From: a virus
IMG/VR virus record: IMGVR_UViG_3300019776_000564
Coordinates: 1-64,000 of that record
Reading direction: 5' to 3' (one strand)
DNA length: 64,000 nucleotides
Of this stretch, positions 30,711 to 51,322 are shown in pieces. The notes below the pieces were generated by a model. It did not search any database, had not been told where the DNA came from, and worked only from the letters and a program-made list of their open reading frames with translations. Both the position numbers and the translations under genes were made by a program. The number at the start of each line of letters is the position of its first letter. Positions within the stretch are counted from its first letter, which is position 1.

Positions 30711-33700
30711 CCGCGGCTTTAACAAACACCATCTCTACCCAATAAGACCCAAGCCCCAACAGTGCCGCGGCTAGCTTTAATAAACGCCGGGCCGTGGGAC
30801 ACCGAGTCCTTGGTAAGATTGGAGCCGCGGCAAGCCACTCTATGGATAGATTTGGGAGAACCAGAAAAAGGCTATAGGTGCCGTTATATATCACCAAGGT
30901 GCGTGTTTACCGCGGGGATAAGAGATAGGCATTACCAAGAGATAGGTAAGAGGCTTGCCAAGGCGTTTAGCCGCGGGAGCCATGTTTACAAATGTTGGTT
31001 TATTCACCGTCTGCCAAAATTTCTCTTACACAGGCACAGAGGTTAAACACGGCTTATACGGTGATAGAGGTGAAAGCAGGCTGAGATAGGTCTACCGCGG
31101 CGGGTATGATGCCTAACCTTGGTTGTTTGAACCACCCGGTATGCCGCGGCTCGGCGGTGTTAAAAACCATAAAACAGGTACTAAACAGGCTACCGGATAA
31201 CACCACTTGCAAGCGTTTACTATGAATCAACTCAGAGCAACAGACTCTGGGAACACTGAGAGAGCACCTATGAAAGACCTGAACGTTTTGCTGAAACAAA
31301 TGCAGGCGCACGAAAACGGTATGACTCTTGAGCAGTATCTGGGTCACTTCACCGAAGTCACCAAAGAACAGCGCCTGTTCAAGCTTGAAAGCTGTGAAGG
31401 TGACACCGGGTTTCTGCTGCGCAACGAAGATGGTTGCTATCACATCTGGTACGTGAGCACCTCTACTTCTCCCCTCTATGAGGGTGAGCGTTACCACGTT
31501 ACAGAAACCGGAAGCTGGTATCCCAATCAGCTCAACGAGGCCATGACTGACCTCATGCTGCAAATGAAGATCGATTGTGCGGGGTTGATCGAGCGTAACG
31601 GGGTGAAAATTCGGTAGAGATGAAACATAGGGGCTTCTGCCCCTTTCTTGTAGATAGGTTTACCGCGGCGATTTTATGACTCCCGACACATACCTAAAGC
31701 AAGCGTTTACTCTAATGTTCTACGCACATGAGAGAGTAACCGATGAACAAGCTCAACTTCGCCGCATACCGGTATGCGCTGAACAACGCCAAAGAAGAAG
31801 TGCAAGATGGCCGTTACTTTGGCGTTAACTGTGTAATGGTTGAACTGGTCAGCATCGACCAAGATGACTATCTGGTGATCTACAGCGCAGTAGAAAACAC
31901 TGGACCAGATACGGCCAACATTTTCTACAACGGTGAGCACTGTGCTGGTGTTATACACATACCCGGCGATCAGTGGTCTAAAGCAAACACCGTATTCACA
32001 GAGTTGTTTGGTGTAGCTCTGAAAGACGGTTTGCGAGGTGTGAAAGCGTATTATGACTCAGTAGCGTAGAAATACGCTCACGGTATAGCGCTGTGAGCTT
32101 CTATAACGCGTTTTGAGAGCTTTACCGCTATAAAGATGAGTCGATGTACTGCTTGTCTTGGGAAAGCGCTCAAAACGCGTTATACGAGCTTCTAGATAAG
32201 CCGTGGCAAACGTCTGTCCCAGTACCTATTGCCAACAAGTGCCAATTGCAAGCGTTTACTATGATCTCAGTGAGCAGCGACACAGCTGCCGTTACTGAGA
32301 GAGTGATATGAAAACCACAGACTTCAAGGTGCTAGCGCCGGTTGCAGTGAAGGGTAAGAGCCTTCGTGAGCTTCAAAAGGCTTTCGTGGCCTATCGTGAC
32401 GACAACGATCTCGGTTCTCGTGACCTGAAACGCTATGACGGCTGTGTGTATCGCAGTGGTGTGCTTGTAGGCTACTTCTCGTACAACGGTCGCTTCTGGC
32501 GTAAAACGATTCACGGTCAACCACTTCACGTCACTTCGTATCACGGGAGCTAACGCCATGCAAAAGTACCAAATTCGCTACACAATCGGTGACAGCGCTC
32601 GCTGCCGTTACTTTGAAGGTGAATACGAAAGCGAAGGTGAAGCTATCGAAGACTGGGAAGACTACTGCGAGCGCTTCGACGACGGTGTTGATTTCATCGA
32701 TTGCCGTGAATTTGCAGAAAACGGTAAAGAGTTTATCGAATGAACAAGCTTGAACTCCGGGAGTTTCTGGAAAAGAAGGCCGCTGAGTACGCCTCGCGTA
32801 ACCCTATCTATACCCATGCAGAGAGCTTTGACCAAGAAAAGCGCCTCAAAGCCAAGATTGAGACCCGTAAGAAGCCTGCAAACCTCACACAAGACGGTTA
32901 TGTGGTGTATCTGAACGAGCTTAAAGTCGGCACTCACAAGACAGAGGTTAAGCCTTCAGAAGACTTGTGGGACGTAGAAATGCCCCGTTATGAGGTTCGC
33001 TACAAAGAAAGGGGTAGTACGGTAATCAAGAGATGGCGCTGCTATGCCCAAGATGCAGACGAAGCCATTGAAGACTTCAAGCACCTGTACAAGAAAACAA
33101 GCGTGGTGAAAGCTTGGATCATCGAGGCTATTAAAATTAGCGAATAGCCATAAACAAAAAAGCCACTTCTTGTTAGAAGTGGCTTTGTTCGTCGGGTATA
33201 GGCATAGCCTATACCCTAGAACGGTAGATTGTCAAGAGCCGCGGCATAGGTTTGTTTACCAACATATGCCAATAGCAAGCGTTTACTATAACAACAGATC
33301 GAAGCAAACGACTTCGACAGTAGAGAGAGCTTTACCATGATTGATTCCCAGATTCTCGCCGGATTATCCGAAGAGCACCGTGAGCGTGTTCTGAACATGA
33401 ACCGTGTAACACCGTTCTTGATGATGTGTGAAGCTGTAGGTTCAGAGGCTCTACCGTCGCAGATTGCTCGCCTCGAAGAATCTGCCAAGAAAATGTTTGC
33501 ACCTGAGTATCGCTTCTATGCTCACCGCGCTGCCGAACTTTGCGGCATCAAGCTGAACCTCGAACGCACCGAAACTGATAATGACGGTATCCCACTATGA
33601 TCGCCACAGCAGTTGTTCAGAAAACCGTGTTTCTCGTAATCATGGCCTGCACAGGCATGAGAGATACAGCCTGTGATGATTCTGTCTATGCCGAATCTTG

Positions 33701-34811
33701 GTATGGCCCAGAAAGCAAAGAAGAGTGCGAAACCTTTATCCACCGTAAAGAGTTCGACCCCAGTGACTACCTTACTCTGGGTAATCATGAATACTACGCA
33801 GTGAGGTGCGAGTGATGAACAACTACGGCTATGAAGTGAAATACTGGGATGCAAACGGGAATCTTCTCTGTGTAGAGGTAGTCGTAGCTGCACCCGAAGA
33901 CTGGCGCTATGCAGAGCGCATGGTTCTAGAGCAGTCTCATGTGACCACTGTAGAAAGCTCTGTGTTCCTGGGCATGACCGACACTGCACCCGGCATTCAA
34001 GAATCAACCGTTCTTGTACTGAGAGAAGCAGAGCCAGAGTAATCTGGCTTTTAAACACAGCCGTGCCGCGGCAAACCTATAGTAGAGGTAGTCCACGGTC
34101 TATAGGCACTAGGCATGACGGTCCATGGACTCCCGGCACACAGGTCATGCGTGTATGGTTCTCTTAAGCCGTTCTAAGAGGTTTACCGCGGCGCGTCCTT
34201 GGGCCGACCCGGGTTAGTCTTCTAAACGCCTCCTAGTGCCTCTCTGAGAGCTTTAAACTGCTTGTATAGCAGCGTCAGACTGCTACCAGACATTGAGAGA
34301 GGCTCCACCATGAAATTGATCTGCAACGGGTTCAAAACCACTGGTACAGACAGTGAAGACCATATCTACTTCTTCAAAGCCACTTTCAGCGGTGAAGACC
34401 TGTTTTTCGAGCTGACCAACAGTGAAATCGCCGAAATCACTGATGACGGTGATTACCAGCTCCCACCACGCTTCGATTTTGGTTTCCGTGAACCTATGAT
34501 CTGCCAGCTTCTTCACTGGATGCATACCGTCTACTGGAAAGACGAAGACGGGATTCTCGAAGGTTGCACCATCGAAATGACTCGACCAGAAGGTGTCTAA
34601 CCAGAGCAGCCCGGTTACACCGGGCTTTCTTAGCTATCTCAGAGCCGCGGTAAGCCGATCTCAGCCAATATCAACCTTGGTCCAAAAAAGGCTATAGGTG
34701 CCGAATATAGGTATAAGGCGGGCTTTGGACATATGTGGTGTAGTCCCGCGGCGCTCTCAAATGAGAATCATTCTCAGGGGCGCTGCGAATCGTTCTCATT
34801 CGCGACCGCGG
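30711..34811. repeat. 14 intergenic CCGCGG-core motifs (extended consensus GATAGGYTTRCCGCGGC, both orientations)
   Basis: Starts at 30711, 30765, 30825, 30910, 30971, 31095, 31144, 31663, 33239, 34066, 34186, 34645, 34746, 34806. Confidence 0.85.
31270..34600 (+). CDS. Small ORFs in separately promoted units (31270-31617, 31743-32069, 32308-32553, 32558-32743, 32740-33147, 33337-33600, 33597-33815, 33815-34042, 34310-34600)
   Basis: Each unit has a CC-N8-CC-N13-(-10) motif and a GAGAGAG RBS on its first gene. Confidence 0.75.
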
Positions 34812-34979
34812 TTGAGACGCATTCTCAAATGCAAATGATTCTCATTCTCAAATACGAATGATTCTCATTTCACTCAAATGAGACGCATTCTCAAATGCAA
34901 ATGATTCTCATTTTCAGACAATAATCGTTCTCATTCTCAAACAAGAATTTATCTAATTCTCAAGTGCGAATGATTCTCA
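34762..34979. promoter_or_regulatory. Array of nine Fur-box-like 15-mers
   Basis: TGAGAATCATTCTCA (perfect 7-1-7) plus eight variants; 34-bp direct repeat 34813-34846 / 34879-34912. Confidence 0.7.
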
Positions 34980-35098
34980 ACACCTGTCTTCTCTTATTAC
35001 ATGCGCACGCGCGCAAGTAGCACAGCAAATTAGAATGAGCAAGAATTTTTTAGTTATATGCTTATGCTTTTCCGATCTATCAAATATCTAATAATCGC

Positions 35099-35126
35099 TT
35101 GCATCAAAATCTAGTTAGTCTAATAT
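35099..35126 (+). promoter_or_regulatory. Sigma70-like promoter of the CC/GG-free operon
   Basis: TTGCAT-N16-TAATAT. Confidence 0.5.
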
Positions 35127-35206
35127 TCAACTCAAGCGACGCAACAACGCGACGCTAACGAAGTAGCTCAATAACGAAGCTACTCACTTCTAGAGAGAGA
35201 TATAAA

Positions 35207-35761
35207 ATGACTCAAGTTAACGCTAAAGCTGTAGCTAACAAAGAAGCTTTTGAAGTTGTTGCAGCTGAGTTTGCTGCAACTAAAGAGCAAGCAAGTGCGC
35301 AAGCTGCTCAAGCTCAAAACGACGAAGAGCGTAAAGCGTTTGCAGATGCTGCTAAAACAGCGTCTACACACGAACGCTACACTAACGCACTTGCTAACAT
35401 GAGCGAAAAAGCGCTCGCAAGTTTGAACAAGTACAAAATCAACGCTACTGAACTTGCTAAACAATCGCGTGAACTGAAAAAGCGCTCTATTGCGATCATC
35501 GAAGCGATTGTAACTAAGCAACGCGTTAACGATCGCGCACTTGACGCAGTGTTACAGTACATCGTCGCTAAAGACGCTGCGAGCATGACGCTTGAGCAAG
35601 TGCGCACGCAAATGCAGCACGAAACTACTACGCAAGCGCAATACTTCAAAACTTGCGCAATCTTTTTCAACTTCGCGCAGTACTCTAAGTCTGAAAAGAC
35701 TATCAACTTCAACAAAGACGCTACTGTCTTGAAAGAGTTGATCGCGATCTACACTGTGTAA
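35207..35761 (+). CDS. Island protein 1 (184 aa; no Gly/Pro/Trp)
   Basis: GAGAGAGA RBS; followed by hairpin plus T tract at 35772-35808. Confidence 0.85.
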   Translation: MTQVNAKAVANKEAFEVVAAEFAATKEQASAQAAQAQNDEERKAFADAAKTASTHERYTNALANMSEKALASLNKYKINATELAKQSRELKKRSIAIIEAIVTKQRVNDRALDAVLQYIVAKDAASMTLEQVRTQMQHETTTQAQYFKTCAIFFNFAQYSKSEKTINFNKDATVLKELIAIYTV

Positions 35762-35829
35762 CAGTGTGCGCAAGCGCTCTAGAACGTCTCTAGAGCGCTT
35801 TTCTTTTCTAGTCTGAGTGAGACAACGCA

Positions 35830-36129
35830 ATGAACAAGCAAATCGCTGTAAACGCGCTACAGAGCGCTACAGAGCAAGCGCTGCTAGACGTGCAAGCTAG
35901 CGTGCTGCATATGCTACAGAATCGTAGTGCTGAGACGTACTATCAGCACGCACAAGCGCTGCGACATACGCTCACATACGCTAGCACTGAGTATGTGTTT
36001 AACGCTGTTAAACGACACGTGCAGCGCACTACAGCGCAACGTGTGAGCATGAAGCAAAGTATCAGTGTATTGCGCAGTGATATACGCGCTGCTATGCGTG
36101 CAGATAAGTATTCATTGTTTGCACACTAA
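35830..36129 (+). CDS. Island protein 2 (99 aa; no Gly/Pro/Trp)
   Basis: ORF with GAGTGAG RBS. Confidence 0.7.
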   Translation: MNKQIAVNALQSATEQALLDVQASVLHMLQNRSAETYYQHAQALRHTLTYASTEYVFNAVKRHVQRTTAQRVSMKQSISVLRSDIRAAMRADKYSLFAH

Positions 36130-36164
36130 GTTATTTAAACTTTTCTCTTCTTACTTGTGAGTAT

Positions 36165-36497
36165 ATGCAAATGACTAAAGTATCGTTCTCTAACGTTATC
36201 GCTGACGCTTTCAGCGCTGAACAAATGCAAGATATCAGCAAAGCAGACTATAACAATCTGCTTTCTATTCTCGACATAAAGTCAAAGTATATCGAGTTTG
36301 TTAATAACGCTGAGTGCATGCACTTGCTTATTGTGCATGATGCGCGCAATAACAAGTATGAAATTGTTAGTGTGTATATCAGCGCTAACTTAGAGCATTA
36401 TCAAGTAACGTTAGTTGATACTTGCGATACACTGTCAGACGCATATAACGAACTGCATAATTCGTTGCAACTTCTACTCAGTGAGTGCGACAACTAA
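36165..36497 (+). CDS. Island protein 3 (110 aa, acidic; no Gly/Pro/Trp)
   Basis: ORF. Confidence 0.75.
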   Translation: MQMTKVSFSNVIADAFSAEQMQDISKADYNNLLSILDIKSKYIEFVNNAECMHLLIVHDARNNKYEIVSVYISANLEHYQVTLVDTCDTLSDAYNELHNSLQLLLSECDN

Positions 36498-36505
36498 GTT
36501 AGTTG

Positions 36506-36684
36506 CTTACTTACACTTTTCTAAGTTGTCAAAGTCTTAGAAAAGTGTAAGTAAGACGTGACCCTACTCCCTTCTAAATCCCGGATACCTGCACTCTAAC
36601 CTTACACAGGTAGGTAGGAAGTTCCCACACGCTCTCCTTACACAGGTAGGAACAGGTTCACAATACAATCCCTTACACAGGTAG
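36506..36684. repeat. 20-bp perfect inverted repeat plus three CCTTACACAGGTAG direct repeats
   Basis: Arms 36506-36525 and 36536-36555; repeats at 36600, 36636, 36671. Confidence 0.9.
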
Positions 36685-36779
36685 CCTTACGCTCCCAACG
36701 TCTTACGCACATACTTGATAAACAGTCAGCGCTGATAAGCAGCTAAGCACTTAACCACTAAACACTTAAGGAGTTACCC

Positions 36780-37466
36780 ATGACAGCAAAGTCCAATAAT
36801 CCAAACCAACCCGGTTCCGTGCCGCCTGCGGCGGACGCAACCTGGCTATCCAAGCTGTTTGACAGAATCAACAAGAGGCTTAACCTTTCTTCGTGCCCAG
36901 AAGACCTTGCTGCTTTCTTTGAGCAAATTAACCAAGAAGCGGAAGACCTTAAAATCCAGGAGTTCAATGAGATTTACCTGCACAAGTACGTGATGTTTAT
37001 CGCGCCTATTAAAAATCAGCGGTTAACCGGGATTGTTAACAAGATTGAGCACGCTGAAAGCGGTGTGACGTTCACTATTAACCGTGTTGTGTTGATCGCT
37101 GGTGAGCTTCTGGAAACAAACGAGGTGTTTGACAACGTACCTCTGACGGCAAGCTTTGCCGTATTCAGGAACAAAGAAAGCTGCATCAACGACATCAAAG
37201 AGACGAACAGAGCCAGAGCCAAAGCGAAAGCTGTTAGGCAAGAGGTTGAAGAGCGTCTTAAAAACGACCAAGAAATAGAGCGCAGGAAAGAAATCAAAAA
37301 GATCGCAGAGCAGATCTTGGTACAGCGTGCAGCTAACGGTGAGATTTGGGCAGTGTTTGACAATGCAGACGTTAAGGCAGTGTTTAGACAGGCAGAGAGT
37401 ATTGTTGATGGTCTTAAGAGCCTAGACCCAAGTAAACAAGACAGCGAAAACACCGACACCCGGTGA
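36780..37466 (+). CDS. Hypothetical protein
   Basis: TAAGGAG RBS; promoter motif 36685-36715. Confidence 0.8.
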   Translation: MTAKSNNPNQPGSVPPAADATWLSKLFDRINKRLNLSSCPEDLAAFFEQINQEAEDLKIQEFNEIYLHKYVMFIAPIKNQRLTGIVNKIEHAESGVTFTINRVVLIAGELLETNEVFDNVPLTASFAVFRNKESCINDIKETNRARAKAKAVRQEVEERLKNDQEIERRKEIKKIAEQILVQRAANGEIWAVFDNADVKAVFRQAESIVDGLKSLDPSKQDSENTDTR

Positions 37467-44390: not shown

Positions 44391-44552
44391 CTTTATTTCT
44401 CTTGTCGCTGCGTTTCGATGAGTGAACTTTATAGACGCTGTGTAAGGTTAGCAAGCGCTTTGTGTAAGTTTTTTATTGAAGCCCACTTAAGATGATTGGA
44501 TAAAAATCTCTTGCAAACCTTTCAGACGCTCGGATAGTATCCACTTCGTTGA

Positions 44553-44629
44553 TGCGGGTTAGCTCAGACGGTCAGAGCGGCGGACTCATAATCCACAGGT
44601 CACTGGTTCAAATCCAGTACCCGCATCCA
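44553..44629 (+). tRNA. tRNA-Met/Ile2 (CAT)
   Basis: Cloverleaf, TTCAAAT T-loop, encoded CCA. Confidence 0.88.
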
Positions 44630-44635
44630 GTTTCT

Positions 44636-44711
44636 TGGGGTATAGCTCAGTTGGTAGAGCAAACGGCTGTTAACCGTTAGGTCACTGGTTCGAGTCCAGT
44701 TTCCCCAGCCA
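44636..44711 (+). tRNA. tRNA-Asn (GTT)
   Basis: Canonical cloverleaf, encoded CCA. Confidence 0.93.
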
Positions 44712-44815
44712 AAAGCGAGAATCTCGGTGTAATCCTCAGAAAGGTCTGTTGATTCACAGCGAGAGTCGAGAAATCAACCGGCGTGGTGCCGCCGTTCTCG
44801 CAGCACCAAGATTTC

Positions 44816-44900
44816 GTCGTTTGATTCCACTCTGGGAAGTGGTAGGGGCTGTAACCCCCGAGTCGTTGACTGCGTGGTTCGATTCCATCAAACGGCACCA
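44816..44900 (+). tRNA. Atypical tRNA with GTA anticodon (9/3-type fold)
   Basis: GTCGTTTGA/TCAAACGGC acceptor, TGG-TTCGATT-CCA T arm, long variable arm, CCA. Confidence 0.75.
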
Positions 44901-44905
44901 AATAT

Positions 44906-44982
44906 TGGTGATTAGCTCAGTCGGATAGAGCATCCGCCTTCTAAGCGGATGGTCACAGGTTCAAGTCCTGTATCACCAACCA
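44906..44982 (+). tRNA. tRNA-Arg (TCT)
   Basis: Canonical cloverleaf; terminator at 44986-45012. Confidence 0.93.
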
Positions 44983-46806: not shown

Positions 46807-47592
46807 ATGATTGACGACGATTTCTCCGATCTTGACGACCTGGAAATGAACCTCAACGACCTCGCCGCTGTAAATGAGGCAATCGAAAAGGCCAAGATCG
46901 TACCTACAACAGAGATGGACGTTGAGTATGCAAACCCTCACGACCTTCTACCGAACCCCTGGAATCCAAACTCTGTAGACCCGGTAAACCAAGCAAAGCT
47001 TGAGAACTCCATCAAGCGTGATGGCATCAAGCGCCCTATCGTTGTTCGTCAGCTTGATAACGGCGATTTCCAGATCATCGGCGGTCAGCACCGAACAGAA
47101 GCAGCTATTGAGCTTGGCATGAAGAAAGTGCCAATCATCAACAGAGGCAAGATCAGCGATGCAGAGGCGAAGAAAGAAACGCTTCTGGACAACTATCGAT
47201 ACGGCTCAGACAACCTTGATCGACTGTCCGCCCTTCTGAGTGACCCTGAGATTGGCGACGCCGCTACCCTGCTCGACACTATGCCTATCGATGAAGAGGA
47301 ACTGGCCGAATACTTCAGCCACGTAACCTCTGAAAACATAGATATGGAGATCGAAGACGCTTTGGATGACGGCACAAAATCGGACGATGAAGACGACGAT
47401 GTTGTAGATTTGAGTACCGGCAAGCCTCTGAGAACTCACCAGATTATTCGGTTCCGCGTTTCAATCGAAGATCAGACAAAACTGGCTGAACTGCTGAAGA
47501 AGGTAAAGATTGACGAGGGCTATGTGACCTCAGACGACCTTACCAATGATGGTGACGCTTTGATTCACATGCTGAGAGATCAGTTTGAATGA
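46807..47592 (+). CDS. ParB/Srx-domain protein
   Basis: PNPWNPN, PIVVR, IIGGQHR. Confidence 0.85.
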   Translation: MIDDDFSDLDDLEMNLNDLAAVNEAIEKAKIVPTTEMDVEYANPHDLLPNPWNPNSVDPVNQAKLENSIKRDGIKRPIVVRQLDNGDFQIIGGQHRTEAAIELGMKKVPIINRGKISDAEAKKETLLDNYRYGSDNLDRLSALLSDPEIGDAATLLDTMPIDEEELAEYFSHVTSENIDMEIEDALDDGTKSDDEDDDVVDLSTGKPLRTHQIIRFRVSIEDQTKLAELLKKVKIDEGYVTSDDLTNDGDALIHMLRDQFE

Positions 47593-47748
47593 CCAATCAA
47601 AGCGAAAAGAACTCGGTAGAAGAAAGAATACGCCGGCGAGAAATTATCGAAAAGGCGGCTCAGAAAGCCAGAGAAAAAGAAGAACGAAGACCGATGAACC
47701 CGGACTACGACTTCTCCTGGGAAAACACCAATTTCGAGAGAAACGACT

Positions 47749-48441
47749 ATGACTGAAGCCTACCAAAAGAAAGACGAGATCTGGTCTATTGACCGCCTTG
47801 TCCCTTATGCAATGAACAGCAAGAAGCACGACCCTAAACAGGTCGCTAAAATTGCTGCGTCCATCAGCAAGCACGGGTGGACTACAAGGATCATCGTTGA
47901 GCCGGATGGGACGATCATTGCGGGCCATGGTCGACGACTAGCGGCAATCGATCTGATGCAGGAGAAGGTTCCAGTTACAGTCCTTCACGGTATCAGCAAG
48001 GAGCAAGCAAAAGCTCTGCGGATCATCGACAACAAGACGAACGAAGGTGGTCACGACACTGCGATCCTCAGTCAGGAGCTTAAAGAGCTTATTCTGGAAG
48101 ATGGCATTGATATGAGTGACTTCTTCGATGTCCGGGATCTGAGCTTCGCCATTGAAGATCTTGGCGAACTGGATATGGAAAGTCTCAGTCCTGATATCAC
48201 ACCAGAAGTTGCTGAGCAAACCACCAGAACCGAGCAGCAAATCGAAGAGACTGATGAGAACGAGGTTAGCCTTACAAAGGCAATCGGCATCAGCAGAATC
48301 AGTGGTTCGCAGGCGAGAGAAATGAAGCGCTATGTCGGCTTTGCTCAGGACTACTACAACTGCGACCCAGCAGAAGCGATGCTGAGAGCGTTGGAAGACT
48401 GGTATAGCGGCAATAAGCTGGATGAGGATGACTGCAAATGA
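47749..48441 (+). CDS. ParB/Srx-domain protein
   Basis: LVPYAMNSKKH, IIAGHGRRLAA, LRIIDNK. Confidence 0.88.
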   Translation: MTEAYQKKDEIWSIDRLVPYAMNSKKHDPKQVAKIAASISKHGWTTRIIVEPDGTIIAGHGRRLAAIDLMQEKVPVTVLHGISKEQAKALRIIDNKTNEGGHDTAILSQELKELILEDGIDMSDFFDVRDLSFAIEDLGELDMESLSPDITPEVAEQTTRTEQQIEETDENEVSLTKAIGISRISGSQAREMKRYVGFAQDYYNCDPAEAMLRALEDWYSGNKLDEDDCK

Positions 48442-49073
48442 CCACATATACAGTAAACAAGTCCTTTTCCAGCAACGTTGTTCGTAGCCGGCGTGTCCTT
48501 GAGGTTGCAGAAGGCTTTGGTCTTGGCCTTGAGGACAAGGACTTTACCGTATACAAGGACTTCAAGATCGATGTCAGTCAGGGTGATGTTGTGTATATCA
48601 CAGGGCAGTCTGGTTCGGGTAAGTCTCTCCTGCTTAAGGAGCTTGCAAAGCAGATCTCCGAAGAGCAGTCGGTAGCAGATATCGACCTCGTTAAGTACCA
48701 AGAGATCCCTTTGATTGACCAAATCGGTTCGAGCACCGATGAAGCCATTCAAATCCTCAGCCTAGCCGGCCTGAACGACGCATACCTGCTTGTTCGTAAG
48801 CCAAGCGAGTTGTCTGACGGGCAGCGCTATCGCTTCCGTATCGCGCTCCTGATGCAGTCAGGTTGCAAGGTCTGGATTGCAGATGAATTTGGCGCTGTTC
48901 TCGACCGTGTAACCGCTAAGGTTGTGGCTTTTAACCTTCGCAAGCAGGCTGCAAAGGTTGGGGCTACAGTGATCGTTGCTACCACACACAAAGACCTCAG
49001 AGACGAGCTTGCGCCCACTATCTATGTGGACAAACGTTTCAAGGACAAAATCAACGTTGAGGTGGCGGAATGA
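48438..49073 (+). CDS. Stand-alone ABC-type ATPase
   Basis: GQSGSGKS, LSDGQ, IADEF, ATTH. Confidence 0.9.
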   Translation: MTTYTVNKSFSSNVVRSRRVLEVAEGFGLGLEDKDFTVYKDFKIDVSQGDVVYITGQSGSGKSLLLKELAKQISEEQSVADIDLVKYQEIPLIDQIGSSTDEAIQILSLAGLNDAYLLVRKPSELSDGQRYRFRIALLMQSGCKVWIADEFGAVLDRVTAKVVAFNLRKQAAKVGATVIVATTHKDLRDELAPTIYVDKRFKDKINVEVAE

Positions 49074-50116
49074 AATTTCGCAAAAAGCCTGTTGTGATTG
49101 AAGCAACTCAGTGGTTCAAGAACGGCGATCACCCGCTTGATCATGACCCTATCGGAATCGCCAACCCGTCAAGCGTGGACTTGGCTAAGTACGACGAATA
49201 CAAGCAGTTTGAAGGCAAGGTTGTTCGCTATTTCAGAGATCCATATACCGCTGGCAGCAGCATTTGTAAGCACTGCGGTGAAACCATGCACAATCATGGT
49301 TGGATCGATACTTTGGAAGGCGGTCACATCGTCTGCCCGGGTGACTGGATCATCACCGGAGTAGCGAACGAAAAATACCCGTGCAAACCTGACATTTTTG
49401 AAGCCACATACGAGAAGGTATGATCATGAAGCACGAAAAATTCGCAATCTGGCTGTCCGGGTTTACCGATCTGAACATGGGCAATGTGCCAACAAAAGAA
49501 CAGTGGGATCTGATCACTGAAAGGCTGGCGGAATGCTTTGACGAAGTTCAGGAGCTTTCCGTAAAGCAGCAGTACCGTTCTCCAACCTATGGGTTATTTG
49601 CAGGTCAACCTTCTGACGCTCTCTTGAGAGCTACCTCAGTGGCTGATGCGATTTCACTGGCTGCATCAACTGCCTCTGCTGTCACAAATACTGCCAAACG
49701 ATAGGCAAAACTTACACAAAGCCTAATCAAAAAGGTACTCTTTACAGAGTACCTTTTCCGTATCTGGAGCAGAGCAAATGTCAGAACTAATCAAAGTGGA
49801 TTTCAAGGAACGCAAGGTTGTCAATCGAGTAGACCTTGAAGCTCCGGTGCCGGAGTGGTCTGCTAAGAAAGATCCATACTTCAAGGGTTTCATTGAAGGC
49901 ATCATCCTTAGCGCAGAAGAAATGCACAAAAGCGGTGGTGATTGGCGTCGAATGGTCATCGTGCTTCAGGATGAAACGTCTTTAGAGGGCGATGTGTGCA
50001 TTACTCTTTGGGACAAGAACGTTGTTACGGATGAGCAGGCTTCGGATATTCTGATGATTGCCTGTAACAAGATCGACATCAGAGCGGAGGAGAAAGCCTC
50101 ATATGAAGAATCCTGA
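49070..50116 (+). CDS. Three ORFs (49070-49423 PGDYG-like, 49420-49704, 49778-50116)
   Basis: TLEG..PGDWIITG..YPCKPDIF in the first. Confidence 0.7.
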
Positions 50117-50984
50117 ATTTGAAACGGTAATCGAGCTTAACCCGTCCGCTAAACCAAGATTTTCCTTGCTTGATGGGATGCGAGTAGAGAGAGGAACAAA
50201 AGATGATTGGGCGATGCTTCATGACCTTCATTACAAGGCTGAGAACCTACCTGCCGGCCCTCGTTTTTGGCGCTGCGTCACTGCTGATGGCGACCTCGTT
50301 GGTATCGTTGTGCTTAGCACCGTCAGCCTACTACTCGCCCCGCGTCATCAGGTATTCCCGAAGCTCAAACCTGGCAAAGACAGCCATTTTACTAACGTCC
50401 ACCGGGCCACGTTTCTAAACGCGAACTTTAAGCGAGCAGCAAGGATCGTTACGGACACGATGTACCGCGGTATTGGTGTTGCATACAGAATGGTAAACCT
50501 TGCCATGAGGATGGAAGGGATGAGGTTCATCGAGATTCAATCCTCGATGTCCAAGTTCAACCCATTCGATGTAAAGGCCGGGTTCAAGCACGCTCACCTG
50601 AAACCAGCGGCAGCTTATGAGCAGGGTCTGAAATTCATGCGATCCCAGTTCAAAGCTCACCCTGCGGATCATCAAGCGATCATGACCGAGCTTAATAGCT
50701 TCAGTCCTGCTCACCAGAAGCGTGTGATGACAGCCATGCAAGAGTTCTATTACCGCCACAGCGCGCGTGAGAAGACAGGGAGCAACCTCAATGCGGGTAC
50801 GAGTAAAGTACAAGCGATGGCCGCCCCACACCTTCTCAGGGAGCTTCAGCAGCTTGTGTTCGCGAGTCCAGTTTATGGGATCTGGGAGAACCCGGATCTA
50901 GGTAAAGAAATTCCACAATCGCTTCCACTCCGGGCTTTTGATTTGCAAGGCCCGAATCAACCACTGAGGTTAGATCTGCTATGA
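50103..50984 (+). CDS. GNAT-fold acyltransferase (type usually paired with the ABC ATPase)
   Basis: LHY, ARIV....YRGIG motif A, SSMSKFNPF..KAGF. Confidence 0.75.
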   Translation: MKNPEFETVIELNPSAKPRFSLLDGMRVERGTKDDWAMLHDLHYKAENLPAGPRFWRCVTADGDLVGIVVLSTVSLLLAPRHQVFPKLKPGKDSHFTNVHRATFLNANFKRAARIVTDTMYRGIGVAYRMVNLAMRMEGMRFIEIQSSMSKFNPFDVKAGFKHAHLKPAAAYEQGLKFMRSQFKAHPADHQAIMTELNSFSPAHQKRVMTAMQEFYYRHSAREKTGSNLNAGTSKVQAMAAPHLLRELQQLVFASPVYGIWENPDLGKEIPQSLPLRAFDLQGPNQPLRLDLL

Positions 50985-51322
50985 AACCGTTGACCACAAA
51001 ACAGCGTCACCTGATTAAAGTGATCGTCATGGGGAACCTTGATGTATCGGGGAACCGGATCTCGAATGTGGATATCTATCAGATCCAATCGAGGGTTCCG
51101 TATCAGACAACCCGGGAGTCACTGATGTGCAGCCTACCTATCCTTGAGAAGCAGGGATGGATAGTGAAGGCAGGTAAAGATAACCGGGACGGTAGAATGA
51201 AGCAGACCTGGGAACCAACAGCTTTAGCTATCCGGGTTGTTAATCCATCTCCAGTTTCTAAGGAACCGGAGTATGTAGAGATCGATGGGGATGATGATGT
51301 GGTTTTGTTGGAACTGACTTGA
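50981..51322 (+). CDS. Probable winged-helix protein
   Basis: LTTKQ.., L..LEKQGWIVK..R.GR pattern. Confidence 0.5.
   Translation: MKPLTTKQRHLIKVIVMGNLDVSGNRISNVDIYQIQSRVPYQTTRESLMCSLPILEKQGWIVKAGKDNRDGRMKQTWEPTALAIRVVNPSPVSKEPEYVEIDGDDDVVLLELT

What the first reader, a model, noticed from the sequence alone, without database searches (positions are those of the whole stretch)
35073..36562. 1.49-kb island with no CC or GG, encoding three proteins with no Gly, Pro or Trp
Seen: reading every line, I found no CC or GG from 35073 to 36562, and from 34812 onward only two CC and no GG. Roughly 100 or more would be expected at this composition (rough estimate). AA, TT, CG and GC are plentiful. The three ORFs (393 aa in total) therefore lack GGN, CCN and TGG codons. 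RBSs are GAGAG-type and the hairpins avoid CC/GG too. Both dinucleotides are missing, including at codon junctions and intergenic positions, so the selection acts on dsDNA rather than on protein or mRNA. Inference A: virion DNA is modified at CC/GG and the first-expressed genes must be unmodified for host RNAP to read them. Inference B: avoidance of the type I-F CRISPR 5'-CC PAM (established) or of other CC/GG-containing defence targets by a first-injected anti-defence cassette.
Basis: partly seen in the sequence, partly recalled or inferred. Interest (0 to 1): 0.96.

Follow-up and report, generated by a model that had tools for sequence, protein, structure and literature searches.

The report
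CC/GG-free immediate-early phage regulator cassette
One small, first-expressed gene unit of this 108-kb phage, and of all its examined relatives, is written with no CC or GG, at the cost of three amino acids and normal ribosome-binding sites, so something still unidentified in the infected cell must read that short DNA word.

Summary
Window 35073-36562 (1490 bp) has no CC or GG where about 140-148 are expected. It is the only such gap in the 108-kb genome.

It is not chance and not protein-level selection. Every examined relative, including Pseudomonas syringae phages nickie, Nican01 and hairong, has a purged island at the same place, apart from two residual words in one contig (L010).

- Nickievirus-like phages: GGN/NCC on both strands.
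- One distant relative (G005): only GGB/VCC is banned, and GGA/TCC occur at the expected frequency.
- Another (G006): GGB is banned on the coding strand only.

The island is one host-type promoter-to-terminator unit. It encodes a conserved winged-helix DNA binder (ORF1), a fast-evolving small protein (ORF2) and ORF3. It sits beside conserved CC-rich boxes and the phage's own CC-N8-CC promoter-like code.

The type I-F PAM reading fits poorly: TCC is tolerated in G005 and the ban is one-stranded in G006. A blanket protective GG/CC mark also fits poorly: GG/CC-containing restriction sites are avoided genome-wide, and no modification gene was found.

My best guess (about 0.4) is that the immediate-early cassette exempts itself from a phage-specified activity keyed to CC/GG.

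This scan had already noted the same island in nickie, and analogous islands in unrelated phages.

The parts
34645..34811 (.). Left flank: three CCGCGG boxes (34645, 34746, 34806). They end a cluster that holds 9 of the genome's 20 CCGCGG sites within 31095-34811. CC/GG depletion begins right after the last box.
34755..34980 (.). Array of about 8-10 palindromic boxes (TGAGAATCATTCTCA-like), mostly at 23-bp spacing. Boxes like these occur almost only here in the genome. The array lies in the largest non-coding stretch of the genome (34601-35206). It is not conserved in relatives.
34811..35072 (.). Upstream part of the depleted zone. It has no GG and only two CC (34983 ACC; 35072 TCC, inside the motif TTTTCCGATCT, which is also present in nickie and L009 but altered in Nican01).
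35073..36562 (.). The island proper: 1490 bp with no CC or GG.
35099..35126 (+). Sigma70-type promoter: TTGCAT, 16-nt spacer, TAATAT, with a partly A/T-rich upstream stretch. The layout A-tract / cgcTTGCA / TAnAAT is conserved in relatives, some of which carry 2-3 tandem copies.
35207..35761 (+). ORF1, 184 aa, with a GAGAGAGA ribosome-binding site. N-terminal helical hairpin plus C-terminal winged helix (residues about 105-184). It is the only island gene conserved across the whole phage group.
35772..35800 (+). Intrinsic terminator: 12-bp stem followed by a T-run. ORF1 can therefore be expressed as a monocistronic unit.
35830..36129 (+). ORF2, 99 aa, basic and helical. It is a fast-evolving family (28-31 % identity to nickie, L009 and L013) with a conserved C-terminal RSDIRA...AH motif. 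Nickie's record does not annotate it.
36165..36497 (+). ORF3, 110 aa (possibly starting at 36171), acidic. It is absent from nickie. The one homologue found (73 % identity) also has no Gly, Pro or Trp.
36506..36555 (+). Perfect 20-bp-stem hairpin without a T-run. Its loop and 3' arm carry TTGTCAAAGTCTTAGAA (36526-36542). This is the last purged element, and it is conserved at the island's end in most relatives.
36563..36700 (+). Right border, rich in CC/GG. It holds a GnCCCTAY element, CCCGGA, three CC-CTTACAC-AGGTAG boxes (36600, 36636, 36671) and two CC-N8-CC promoter-like sites (36570, 36685). The same architecture occurs in most relatives.
36780..37466 (+). First gene after the island (228 aa, no family match). 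Its CC/GG content is normal.

Best explanation
The island is the phage's immediate-early master-regulator unit, read by host RNA polymerase. I propose that it is kept free of the short word GG(B)/(V)CC so that a phage-specified activity keyed to that word cannot act on the cassette itself. I call this self-exemption.

Shown:
- It is a self-contained unit running from a sigma70-type promoter to a terminator.
- Its one universally conserved product is a winged-helix DNA binder.
- The ban is maintained by strong purifying selection at the nucleic-acid level across the whole phage group.
- The banned word differs between lineages: GGN on both strands, GGB on both strands, or GGB on the coding strand only.
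- The phage's own later regulatory signals are built from CC words (CC-N8-CC on the + strand, and CC-CTTACAC-AnCC boxes next to the island).
- In nickie, G005 and G006 the island is bracketed by the most CC/GG-dense DNA of the genome. In this window's genome the flanks are only moderately enriched.

Inferred:
It could be ORF1 with partners acting as a cooperative CC-reading activator or silencer. It could be a short-word nickase, or a transcription shut-off factor.
- That activity acts on every other DNA in the cell.
- The cassette has to keep working while the activity is on.

Which molecule reads the word is not known.
For: - The ban is absolute, unique in the genome and limited to one transcription unit.
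- It is kept in every relative examined, through 23-43 % nucleotide divergence of ORF1. A column-shuffle gives 141 +/- 8 CC/GG against 0 observed, and 24.5 % of possible single substitutions would create the word.
- 62 of 76 ORF1 homologues found lack Gly, Pro and Trp entirely; most others carry only one to three such residues.
- An absolute ban kept in several sampled lineages fits a reader that is present in every infection.
- The rule shifts with lineage. G005 has 0 GGB/VCC in 1289 bp where 138 are expected, with GGA 15 against 17 expected and TCC 16 against 17. G006 has 3 GGB against about 38 expected on the coding strand, while VCC is only halved. G007 has a purged paralogue inside the island and an unpurged one outside it.
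- ORF1 is predicted with high confidence as a winged helix: pLDDT 95, Z 7-8.6, rmsd 2.3 A over 72-74 residues against TubR, MarR and ArsR types.
- Intergenic CC-to-CC spacing on the + strand peaks sharply at 10 (46 against about 13 background), giving 39 collapsed CC-N8-CC sites (46 raw), two of them right after the island.
- The CC-rich boxes and border elements are conserved in most relatives and change together with ORF1 (CTTACAC becomes CTTATAC in G005/G006).
- The flanks are at the 99th-100th percentile of CC/GG density in nickie, G005 and G006.
Against: - No reader of the word was identified. No nuclease, methyltransferase or transglycosylase domain was found in the island or in about 40 other proteins scanned.
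- Removing every single CC/GG is far more than is needed to avoid composite 12-bp binding sites.
- G005 and G006 appear by eye to have similar ORF1 proteins (identity not computed), yet they differ in strand symmetry.
- If the activity cuts DNA, how the rest of the phage genome (normal CC/GG content) is protected is unexplained unless DNA entry is stepwise. The genome termini are unknown.
- In this window's own genome the flank enrichment is only moderate (80th-95th percentile).
Confidence: 0.4

Rival explanations
1. An RNA-level or transcription-coupled reader. A factor recognises GG(B) in the early transcript, or in the exposed non-template strand of this very heavily transcribed unit. This would be the bacterial counterpart of CpG avoidance by animal viruses that evade ZAP. 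The cassette avoids the word to keep its messages or its template intact.
For: - In G006 only the coding (RNA-like) strand is purged of GGB: 3 against about 38 expected, while VCC is only halved.
- In L009 and Nican01 the purged zone begins inside the promoter spacer, so there it matches the transcribed DNA.
- The ban overrides normal GGAGG-type ribosome-binding sites.
- The scan found strand-specific purges in early genes of other phages.
Against: - In most lineages CC and GG are purged equally on the coding strand. That reverse-complement symmetry points to DNA.
- In this window about 290 bp upstream of the main promoter are also depleted.
- No known bacterial RNase or RNA-modifying toxin has GG or CC specificity (my own knowledge). 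DarT1, the known guanine ADP-ribosyltransferase acting on single-stranded DNA, showed no consensus motif (PMC11543638).
- Rho's YC preference does not fit, because TC is plentiful in the island (72 copies).
Confidence: 0.2
2. First reader's inference A. Virion DNA carries a modification at CC/GG that host RNA polymerase cannot read. The genes that must be read first from the incoming DNA therefore contain no modifiable site.
For: - It explains why a whole transcription unit, and only that unit, is purged.
- It explains a template-strand-only variant (G006: no VCC on the template strand).
- Lineage-specific words fit the evolving specificity of an enzyme.
- Motif-specific guanine hypermodification exists in other phages (CAjan: GA and GGC; my own knowledge).
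- In nickie, 6-bp palindromes containing CC/GG as a class are not avoided (observed/expected 0.91) while those without are (0.45).
Against: - No TGT/DpdA match in the genome. No methyltransferase or other modification domain in about 40 proteins scanned, and none annotated in nickie, hairong or Nican01.
- GG/CC-containing palindromes are strongly avoided genome-wide. G000: GGATCC 0 against 13 expected, CCATGG 3 against 22, TCCGGA 2 against 20. G005: CCCGGG 0 against 18, GGATCC 0 against 19. Nickie: AGGCCT 0 against 18, GGTACC 0 against 20. These sites therefore look exposed to restriction.
- The replication genes would still have to be transcribed from the incoming modified DNA.
Confidence: 0.15
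3. First reader's inference B. The cassette evades a host defence that needs CC/GG on double-stranded DNA, such as the type I-F CRISPR CC PAM or restriction sites containing CC/GG. It does so as a first-entering anti-defence cassette, like phage T5 first-step-transfer DNA.
For: - T5 first-step-transfer DNA naturally lacks EcoRI sites (my own knowledge).
- Nican01 was typed 'DTR (long)' by PhageTerm, as T5-like phages are (PMC11256456).
- The island is flanked by the genome's largest non-coding, repeat-rich regions.
- The whole family is under heavy restriction pressure.
Against: - TCC/GGA are fully tolerated in G005, and the purge is one-stranded in G006. A CC PAM does not distinguish these cases.
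- An absolute ban implies a large cost per single site, unlike one extra protospacer or part of a restriction site.
- The island does not avoid palindromes in general. It even holds the genome's only AGTACT and one of its three CAGCTG.
- None of the island proteins resembles a known anti-defence protein.
- Host defences vary from strain to strain, whereas the ban is constant.
- The position of the genome ends is unknown.
Confidence: 0.1

Closest known systems
Pre-early (first-step-transfer) DNA of phage T5/BF23, and the leading end of T7
   Same: A short block of genes read by unmodified host RNA polymerase before anything else. It is flanked by repeat- and palindrome-rich non-coding DNA and is naturally free of a target word (EcoRI sites in T5). 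It encodes a DNA-binding protein needed for the next step (A2 in T5). A relative (Nican01) has long terminal repeats (PMC11256456).
   Different: The avoided word here has 2-3 letters, not 6. The ban is absolute and rewrites the proteins. There is no homology to A1, A2 or Dmp. The position relative to the genome ends, and stepwise DNA entry, are both untested. The island is 1.5 kb against about 10 kb in T5.
Dinucleotide avoidance to escape a nucleic-acid reader (CpG suppression in animal RNA viruses and HIV-1 against ZAP; my own knowledge)
   Same: Selection removes a two-letter word, including at synonymous and non-coding positions, because a factor reads that word.
   Different: This is a phage, not an animal virus. 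The ban is limited to one cassette and is absolute rather than a statistical depletion. It is reverse-complement symmetric in most lineages. No reader is known.
Restriction-site avoidance and CRISPR PAM depletion in phage genomes
   Same: Avoidance of a word under selection. The same genomes also show classical genome-wide palindrome avoidance.
   Different: The word is far shorter. The ban is local instead of genome-wide. It depends on context (GGB against GGA) and on strand in some relatives, which no known PAM or type II site explains.
Motif-specific DNA hypermodification (7-deazaguanine by DpdA, e.g. CAjan at GA/GGC) and the chlorovirus short-word enzymes (Nt.CviPII/M.CviPII at CCD); my own knowledge
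   Same: Virus-encoded enzymes that act on 2-3-letter DNA words. Chlorovirus nickases destroy host DNA early in infection.
   Different: No homologous enzyme was found here (and the family scans). GG/CC sites look unprotected genome-wide. [quoted passage not shown]
T4 MotA/AsiA sigma appropriation
   Same: An early sigma70-driven unit encodes a DNA-binding factor plus a small helical protein. The genome has a second, phage-specific promoter-like class (CC-N8-CC).
   Different: No sequence or fold match to MotA or AsiA. The T4 early genes are not purged of any word.

Membership tests
T5-type first-step-transfer (pre-early) region | Lies at the genome end that enters the cell first, within a long terminal repeat | not testable with these tools
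   All IMG/VR contigs are circular assemblies with 90- or 127-bp overlaps. The Nican01 record starts at the large terminase gene by convention. No sequencing run was listed. PhageTerm reported 'DTR (long)' for Nican01 but gave no position.
T5-type first-step-transfer (pre-early) region | Homologues of A1, A2, Dmp or other pre-early proteins | tested here: not met
   Pfam and PHROG scans of ORF1-3 gave no significant family.
T5-type first-step-transfer (pre-early) region | Free of the restriction sites that the rest of the genome has to cope with | tested here: inconclusive
   The island has no site containing CC/GG. It does hold the genome's only AGTACT and one of three CAGCTG, both words that are strongly avoided elsewhere in the genome.
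Type I-F CRISPR PAM (CC) avoidance | Every CC on either strand is avoided, whatever the neighbouring base | tested here: not met
   This holds in the window and in nickie. In relative G005, TCC/GGA occur at the expected frequency (16 against 17, 15 against 17) while VCC/GGB are zero.
Type I-F CRISPR PAM (CC) avoidance | Strand-symmetric avoidance | tested here: not met
   In G006, GGB is purged on the coding strand (3 against about 38 expected) while VCC is only halved (42 against 78).
Motif-specific guanine hypermodification (DpdA / 7-deazaguanine) | A TGT-family DNA transglycosylase gene in the phage | tested here: not met
   PF01702 searched in six frames over the whole 108-kb genome gave no match at E <= 0.1. 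The control genomes all matched.
Self-modification at CC/GG of any chemistry | Restriction sites covered by the mark are not counter-selected | tested here: not met
   GG/CC-containing 6-bp palindromes have a median observed/expected of 0.15 in G000, 0.57 in G005, 0.21 in G006 and 0.12 in G007. Nickie as a class is not depleted (1.01), but AGGCCT, CCATGG and GGTACC are absent from it.
Winged-helix DNA-binding proteins (MarR/ArsR/TubR-like), for ORF1 | Helix-turn-helix plus beta-hairpin wing fold | tested here: met
   AlphaFold model pLDDT 95.4. Residues 105-184 align to TubR, AntR, MepR-like, SarA and MarR chains at Z 7.3-8.4, rmsd 2.3-3.0 A over 72-76 residues. Foldseek probability is 0.98-0.99 but E is about 0.3. 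This is fold level only.
Winged-helix DNA-binding proteins (MarR/ArsR/TubR-like), for ORF1 | Sequence membership in a curated family | tested here: not met
   No Pfam or PHROG family passes its threshold. ORF1 defines its own family of about 100 members.
T4 MotA/AsiA-type middle-promoter activation | A second promoter class carrying a phage-specific box | tested here: inconclusive
   CC-N8-CC is strongly over-represented on the + strand in intergenic DNA, with a spacing peak at 10 (46 against about 13). The sites lie mostly 13-115 nt upstream of genes. Promoter function and ORF1 binding were not tested.

The most novel reading that the evidence does not exclude
Phages of this group, and by analogy the unrelated phages in which the scan found similar islands, carry a so far undescribed takeover system that acts on every copy of a 2-3-letter DNA word: GG(B)/(V)CC here. 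It could be a short-word nickase, a DNA-coating silencer or a transcription-aborting factor. Their immediate-early master-regulator cassette survives by containing none of those words. The purged island would then be a genomic footprint from which the specificity of the unknown system can be read directly in each lineage.
Probability: 0.3. Interest if true: 0.92.

Novelty: new variant of a known kind. Interest (0 to 1): 0.85.

Why it matters
A ban on a two-letter DNA word that is absolute, confined to one transcription unit, and strong enough to remove three amino acids and the normal ribosome-binding site has, as far as I could find, no described explanation in phage biology. The ban has been held through deep divergence.

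The word changes between lineages (GGN, GGB, or GGB on one strand). This means a real sequence-reading molecule with evolving specificity stands behind it.

Cultured relatives exist (nickie, psageB1, Nican01, hairong, ZY21, all on Pseudomonas syringae). The question is therefore directly testable by recoding the island, mapping early transcription and DNA ends, and analysing virion DNA chemistry.

Tried and rejected
- Sequencing runs for terminus and expression mapping: none was listed, and no RNA holder was listed.
Most of the 77 ORF1-bearing contigs could not be fetched. Relatives came from the search for related loci, the genome search and GenBank records.
- Terminal repeats of the IMG/VR contigs are only 90- or 127-bp assembly overlaps. 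The contig starts near ORF1 in L009 and L013 are not physical ends.
- Supplement of PMC11256456: no terminal-repeat coordinates for Nican01.
- I considered the two ABC-type ATPases next to the ParB genes as the agent, because G007 lacks them. I dropped this once G007 proved to have a purged island of its own.
- ORF2 as a minimal beta-beta-alpha-metal nuclease. The model is poor (pLDDT 67) and gave only generic helical-bundle matches. No support.
- ORF3: the Atlas look-up gave only weak leads.
- Rfam: only chance hairpin matches.
- DarT1 as a GG reader: its authors found no consensus motif.
- Rho YC avoidance: TC is plentiful in the island.
- General palindrome or restriction-site avoidance inside the island: not seen.
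- A consistent asymmetry in how far the GG-free and CC-free runs extend upstream: mixed across relatives.
- Literature searches for a described dinucleotide-free early region, PAM-free anti-CRISPR cassettes, or restriction digests of Nickievirus DNA found nothing relevant.
Full report
**1. Observation**

A direct scan shows no CC or GG between the CC at 35072 and the CC at 36562, so the 1490 bp at 35073-36562 contain none.
- The next longest such gap in the complete 108,018-bp virus genome (G000; the window is its bases 1-64000) is 173 bp and lies directly upstream.
- From 34811 onward there are only two CC (34983, 35072). The + strand has no GG from 34811 to 36583.
- About 137-148 CC/GG are expected. 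The log10 probability of an empty stretch of this length is about -67.6.
- No other dinucleotide class shows a comparable gap. Inside the island no further tri- or tetranucleotide is missing.
- The three ORFs (184, 99 and 110 aa) have no Gly, Pro or Trp. These residues make up 7.0, 3.9 and 1.3 % of the other proteins.
- The ribosome-binding sites are GAGAG-type.

**2. What the genome is**

G000 is syntenic, at 23-95 % protein identity over the matched genes, with Pseudomonas phage nickie (Nickievirus, 112 kb). Nickie is a siphovirus with DnaE, RecA, CobST, NrdAB, ThyA and two ParB-like proteins. Other cultured relatives infect Pseudomonas syringae: ZY21, phiK7B1, Nican01 and hairong. More distant members of the same group (G005, G006, G007) share the same core genes and gene order.

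**3. Anatomy of the island**

- A sigma70-type promoter (TTGCAT, 16 nt, TAATAT; 35099-35126) is one of only two such near-consensus matches on the + strand of the whole genome. The other, at 44511, sits just upstream of three tRNA genes.
- The promoter layout (A-tract, cgcTTGCA, TAnAAT), a long leader and a GAGAG ribosome-binding site are conserved in relatives.
- ORF1 is followed by a good intrinsic terminator (35772-35800). Then come ORF2, ORF3 and a perfect 20-bp hairpin (36506-36555).
- ORF1 has about 100 homologues. Its model (pLDDT 95) is a helical hairpin followed by a winged helix at residues 105-184. That domain aligns at Z 7-8.6 and rmsd 2.3 A over 72-74 residues to TubR, MarR and ArsR-type DNA binders.
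- ORF2 is a real but fast-evolving family with a conserved C-terminal RSDIRA...AH motif. Its model is poor.
- ORF3 has one homologue.
- Left of the island lies the genome's largest non-coding stretch. It holds a nearly unique array of palindromic boxes, mostly 23 bp apart.
- The right border is conserved in most relatives: TTGTCAAAGTCTTAGAA (the last purged element), then GnCCCTAY, CCCGGA, and two to four CC-CTTACAC-AnCC boxes.

**4. The ban is conserved, and it acts on nucleic acid**

- Nickie, hairong, Nican01 and five IMG/VR relatives each have one CC/GG-free island of 0.7-1.3 kb at the same place. Another relative (L010) has two residual words.
- 62 of 76 ORF1 homologues found (44-83 % identity) have no Gly, Pro or Trp; most of the rest carry only one to three.
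- Distant family members outside purged islands use these residues normally. The protein itself therefore does not require their absence.
- I shuffled letters within alignment columns of seven ORF1 orthologues, which have 356 variable columns. This creates 141 +/- 8 CC/GG (minimum 117), against 0 observed. 24.5 % of all possible single substitutions in the island would create the word.
- This is strong, continuing, neighbour-dependent purifying selection.

**5. New here: the banned word differs between lineages**

- G005: a 1289-bp island (49488-50777) has zero GGC, GGG, GGT, GCC, CCC and ACC, where 138 are expected. GGA (15 against 17 expected) and TCC (16 against 17) occur at the expected frequency.
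- G006: the homologous 1.3-kb island lacks GGB on the coding strand only (3 against about 38 expected). VCC is merely halved.
- G007: it has two ORF1 paralogues. The one inside a GGB/VCC-free island is purged. The other, 2.5 kb away, is not.
- Even in L010, the one retained glycine of ORF1 uses GGA.
- A real sequence reader with evolving specificity, and in one lineage a strand preference, must therefore lie behind the ban.

**6.

*Type I-F PAM.* A CC PAM does not depend on the preceding base or on the strand. The G005 and G006 rules therefore speak against it. An absolute ban also implies a large cost per single site, which one extra protospacer does not carry.

*Own modification at CC/GG.*
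- There is no TGT/DpdA match in six frames.
- No methyltransferase or other modification domain was found in about 40 proteins scanned. None is annotated in the three GenBank relatives.
- These genomes also show extreme genome-wide avoidance of 6-bp palindromes both with and without CC/GG. Examples in G000: GGATCC 0 against 13 expected, CCATGG 3 against 22, TTCGAA 1 against 38. In G005: CCCGGG 0 against 18. In nickie: AGGCCT 0 against 18 and CAGCTG 0 against 74. In G005 and G006: GTAC 0 against 162 and 222.
- DNA carrying a protective mark on GG/CC should not need to avoid GG/CC-containing sites.
- Nickie as a class is ambiguous (observed/expected 0.91).

The island itself does not avoid palindromes. 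It contains the genome's only AGTACT.

**7. The phage's own CC code**

- On the + strand of intergenic DNA, the CC-to-CC distance peaks sharply at 10 (46 against about 13 background). GG shows no such peak.
- This gives 39 collapsed CC-N8-CC sites (46 raw), mostly 13-115 nt upstream of genes. Two of them lie immediately after the island.
- Together with the CC-CTTACAC-AnCC boxes, this makes CC words the letters of the phage's later regulatory signals.
- In nickie, G005 and G006 the DNA bracketing the island is the most CC/GG-dense in the genome.
- The boxes change (CTTACAC to CTTATAC) in the lineages whose ORF1 is most diverged.

**8. Interpretation**

I take as established that this is a self-contained unit read by host RNA polymerase. 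It is probably immediate-early. It encodes a winged-helix regulator, and its DNA must not contain GG(B)/(V)CC.

My preferred mechanism (about 0.4) is self-exemption. A phage-specified activity keyed to that word acts on other DNA in the cell while this cassette must keep working. The activity could be ORF1 with partners as a cooperative CC reader, a short-word nickase, or a transcription shut-off factor.

An absolute ban kept in several sampled lineages fits a reader that is present in every infection better than it fits variable host defences.

The rivals are:
- an RNA-level or transcription-coupled reader (0.2; favoured by G006, disfavoured by the reverse-complement symmetry elsewhere);
- a virion DNA mark (0.15);
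- host-defence evasion by a first-entering cassette (0.1).

**9. Prior notes of this scan**

The same island in nickie and its ORF1 had been noted before. So had analogous GG/CC-free, or other dinucleotide-free, early or regulator cassettes in unrelated phages, an archaeal virus and a phage-plasmid. I re-checked the nickie island, the ORF1 fold and the CC-N8-CC signal myself. I did not check the other genomes. I found no published description of this phenomenon.

Noticed in passing
whole genome G000 (window 1-64000 and beyond); also nickie, G005, G006, G007: Extreme genome-wide avoidance of many 6-bp palindromes. G000: TTCGAA 1 against 38 expected, CTGCAG 3 against 41, GAGCTC 0 against 25, CTCGAG 0 against 23.5, GGATCC 0 against 13. 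Nickie: CAGCTG 0 against 74, CGATCG 2 against 63. In G005 and G006 the 4-bp word GTAC is absent (0 against 162 and 222 expected). The set of avoided words differs between the phages.
   Followed up: partly
window intergenic regions 1-34700, plus 36570 and 36685; G000 80-101 kb: A strand-specific CC-N8-(G/A)CC signal (39 collapsed sites). The spacing peak at exactly 10 is seen for CC on the + strand only. Most sites lie 13-115 nt upstream of + strand genes and are often followed by a hairpin. It may be a phage-specific promoter or antitermination signal.
   Followed up: partly
window 44511-44982: The genome's second near-consensus sigma70-type promoter on the + strand (44511-44540) sits just upstream of tRNA-Met, tRNA-Asn and tRNA-Arg(TCT) on the + strand. 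It lies inside a block otherwise read on the - strand (TerB-like protein, SF2 helicase). The 74-aa ORF called at 44677-44901 (-) overlaps the tRNA-Asn gene and is probably spurious.
   Followed up: partly
window 31095-34811: Nine of the genome's 20 CCGCGG sites are clustered in the 3.7 kb upstream of the island, some as TTTACCGCGGCG. Nickie has four CCGCGG in the equivalent flank. This may be another regulatory or packaging signal.
   Followed up: no
window 34755-34980: Array of about 8-10 palindromic TGAGAATCATTCTCA-like boxes, mostly at 23-bp (two helical turns) spacing. It resembles an operator or iteron array. It is nearly unique in the genome and is not conserved in nickie, L009 or L013.
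   Followed up: partly
L001 8635-8958 (nickie MG018927, about 104690-105013): The ORF2 homologue (107 aa, no Gly, Pro or Trp) is not annotated in the nickie GenBank record, although it is conserved in Nican01, hairong, L009 and L013.
   Followed up: yes
G007 (IMGVR_UViG_3300028388_003330) 74008-74529 and 76801-77352, - strand: Two ORF1 paralogues lie 2.5 kb apart. Only the one inside the GGB/VCC-free island is purged.
   Followed up: partly
window 46807-51322: Conserved operon upstream of the terminase genes: two ParB-like proteins, then an ABC/SMC-type ATPase (211 aa), two small ORFs, a second ABC-type ATPase (308 aa), another small ORF and a DNA-binding-domain protein (phrog_867, a possible small terminase). 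G007 lacks both ATPases. Function unknown.
   Followed up: partly
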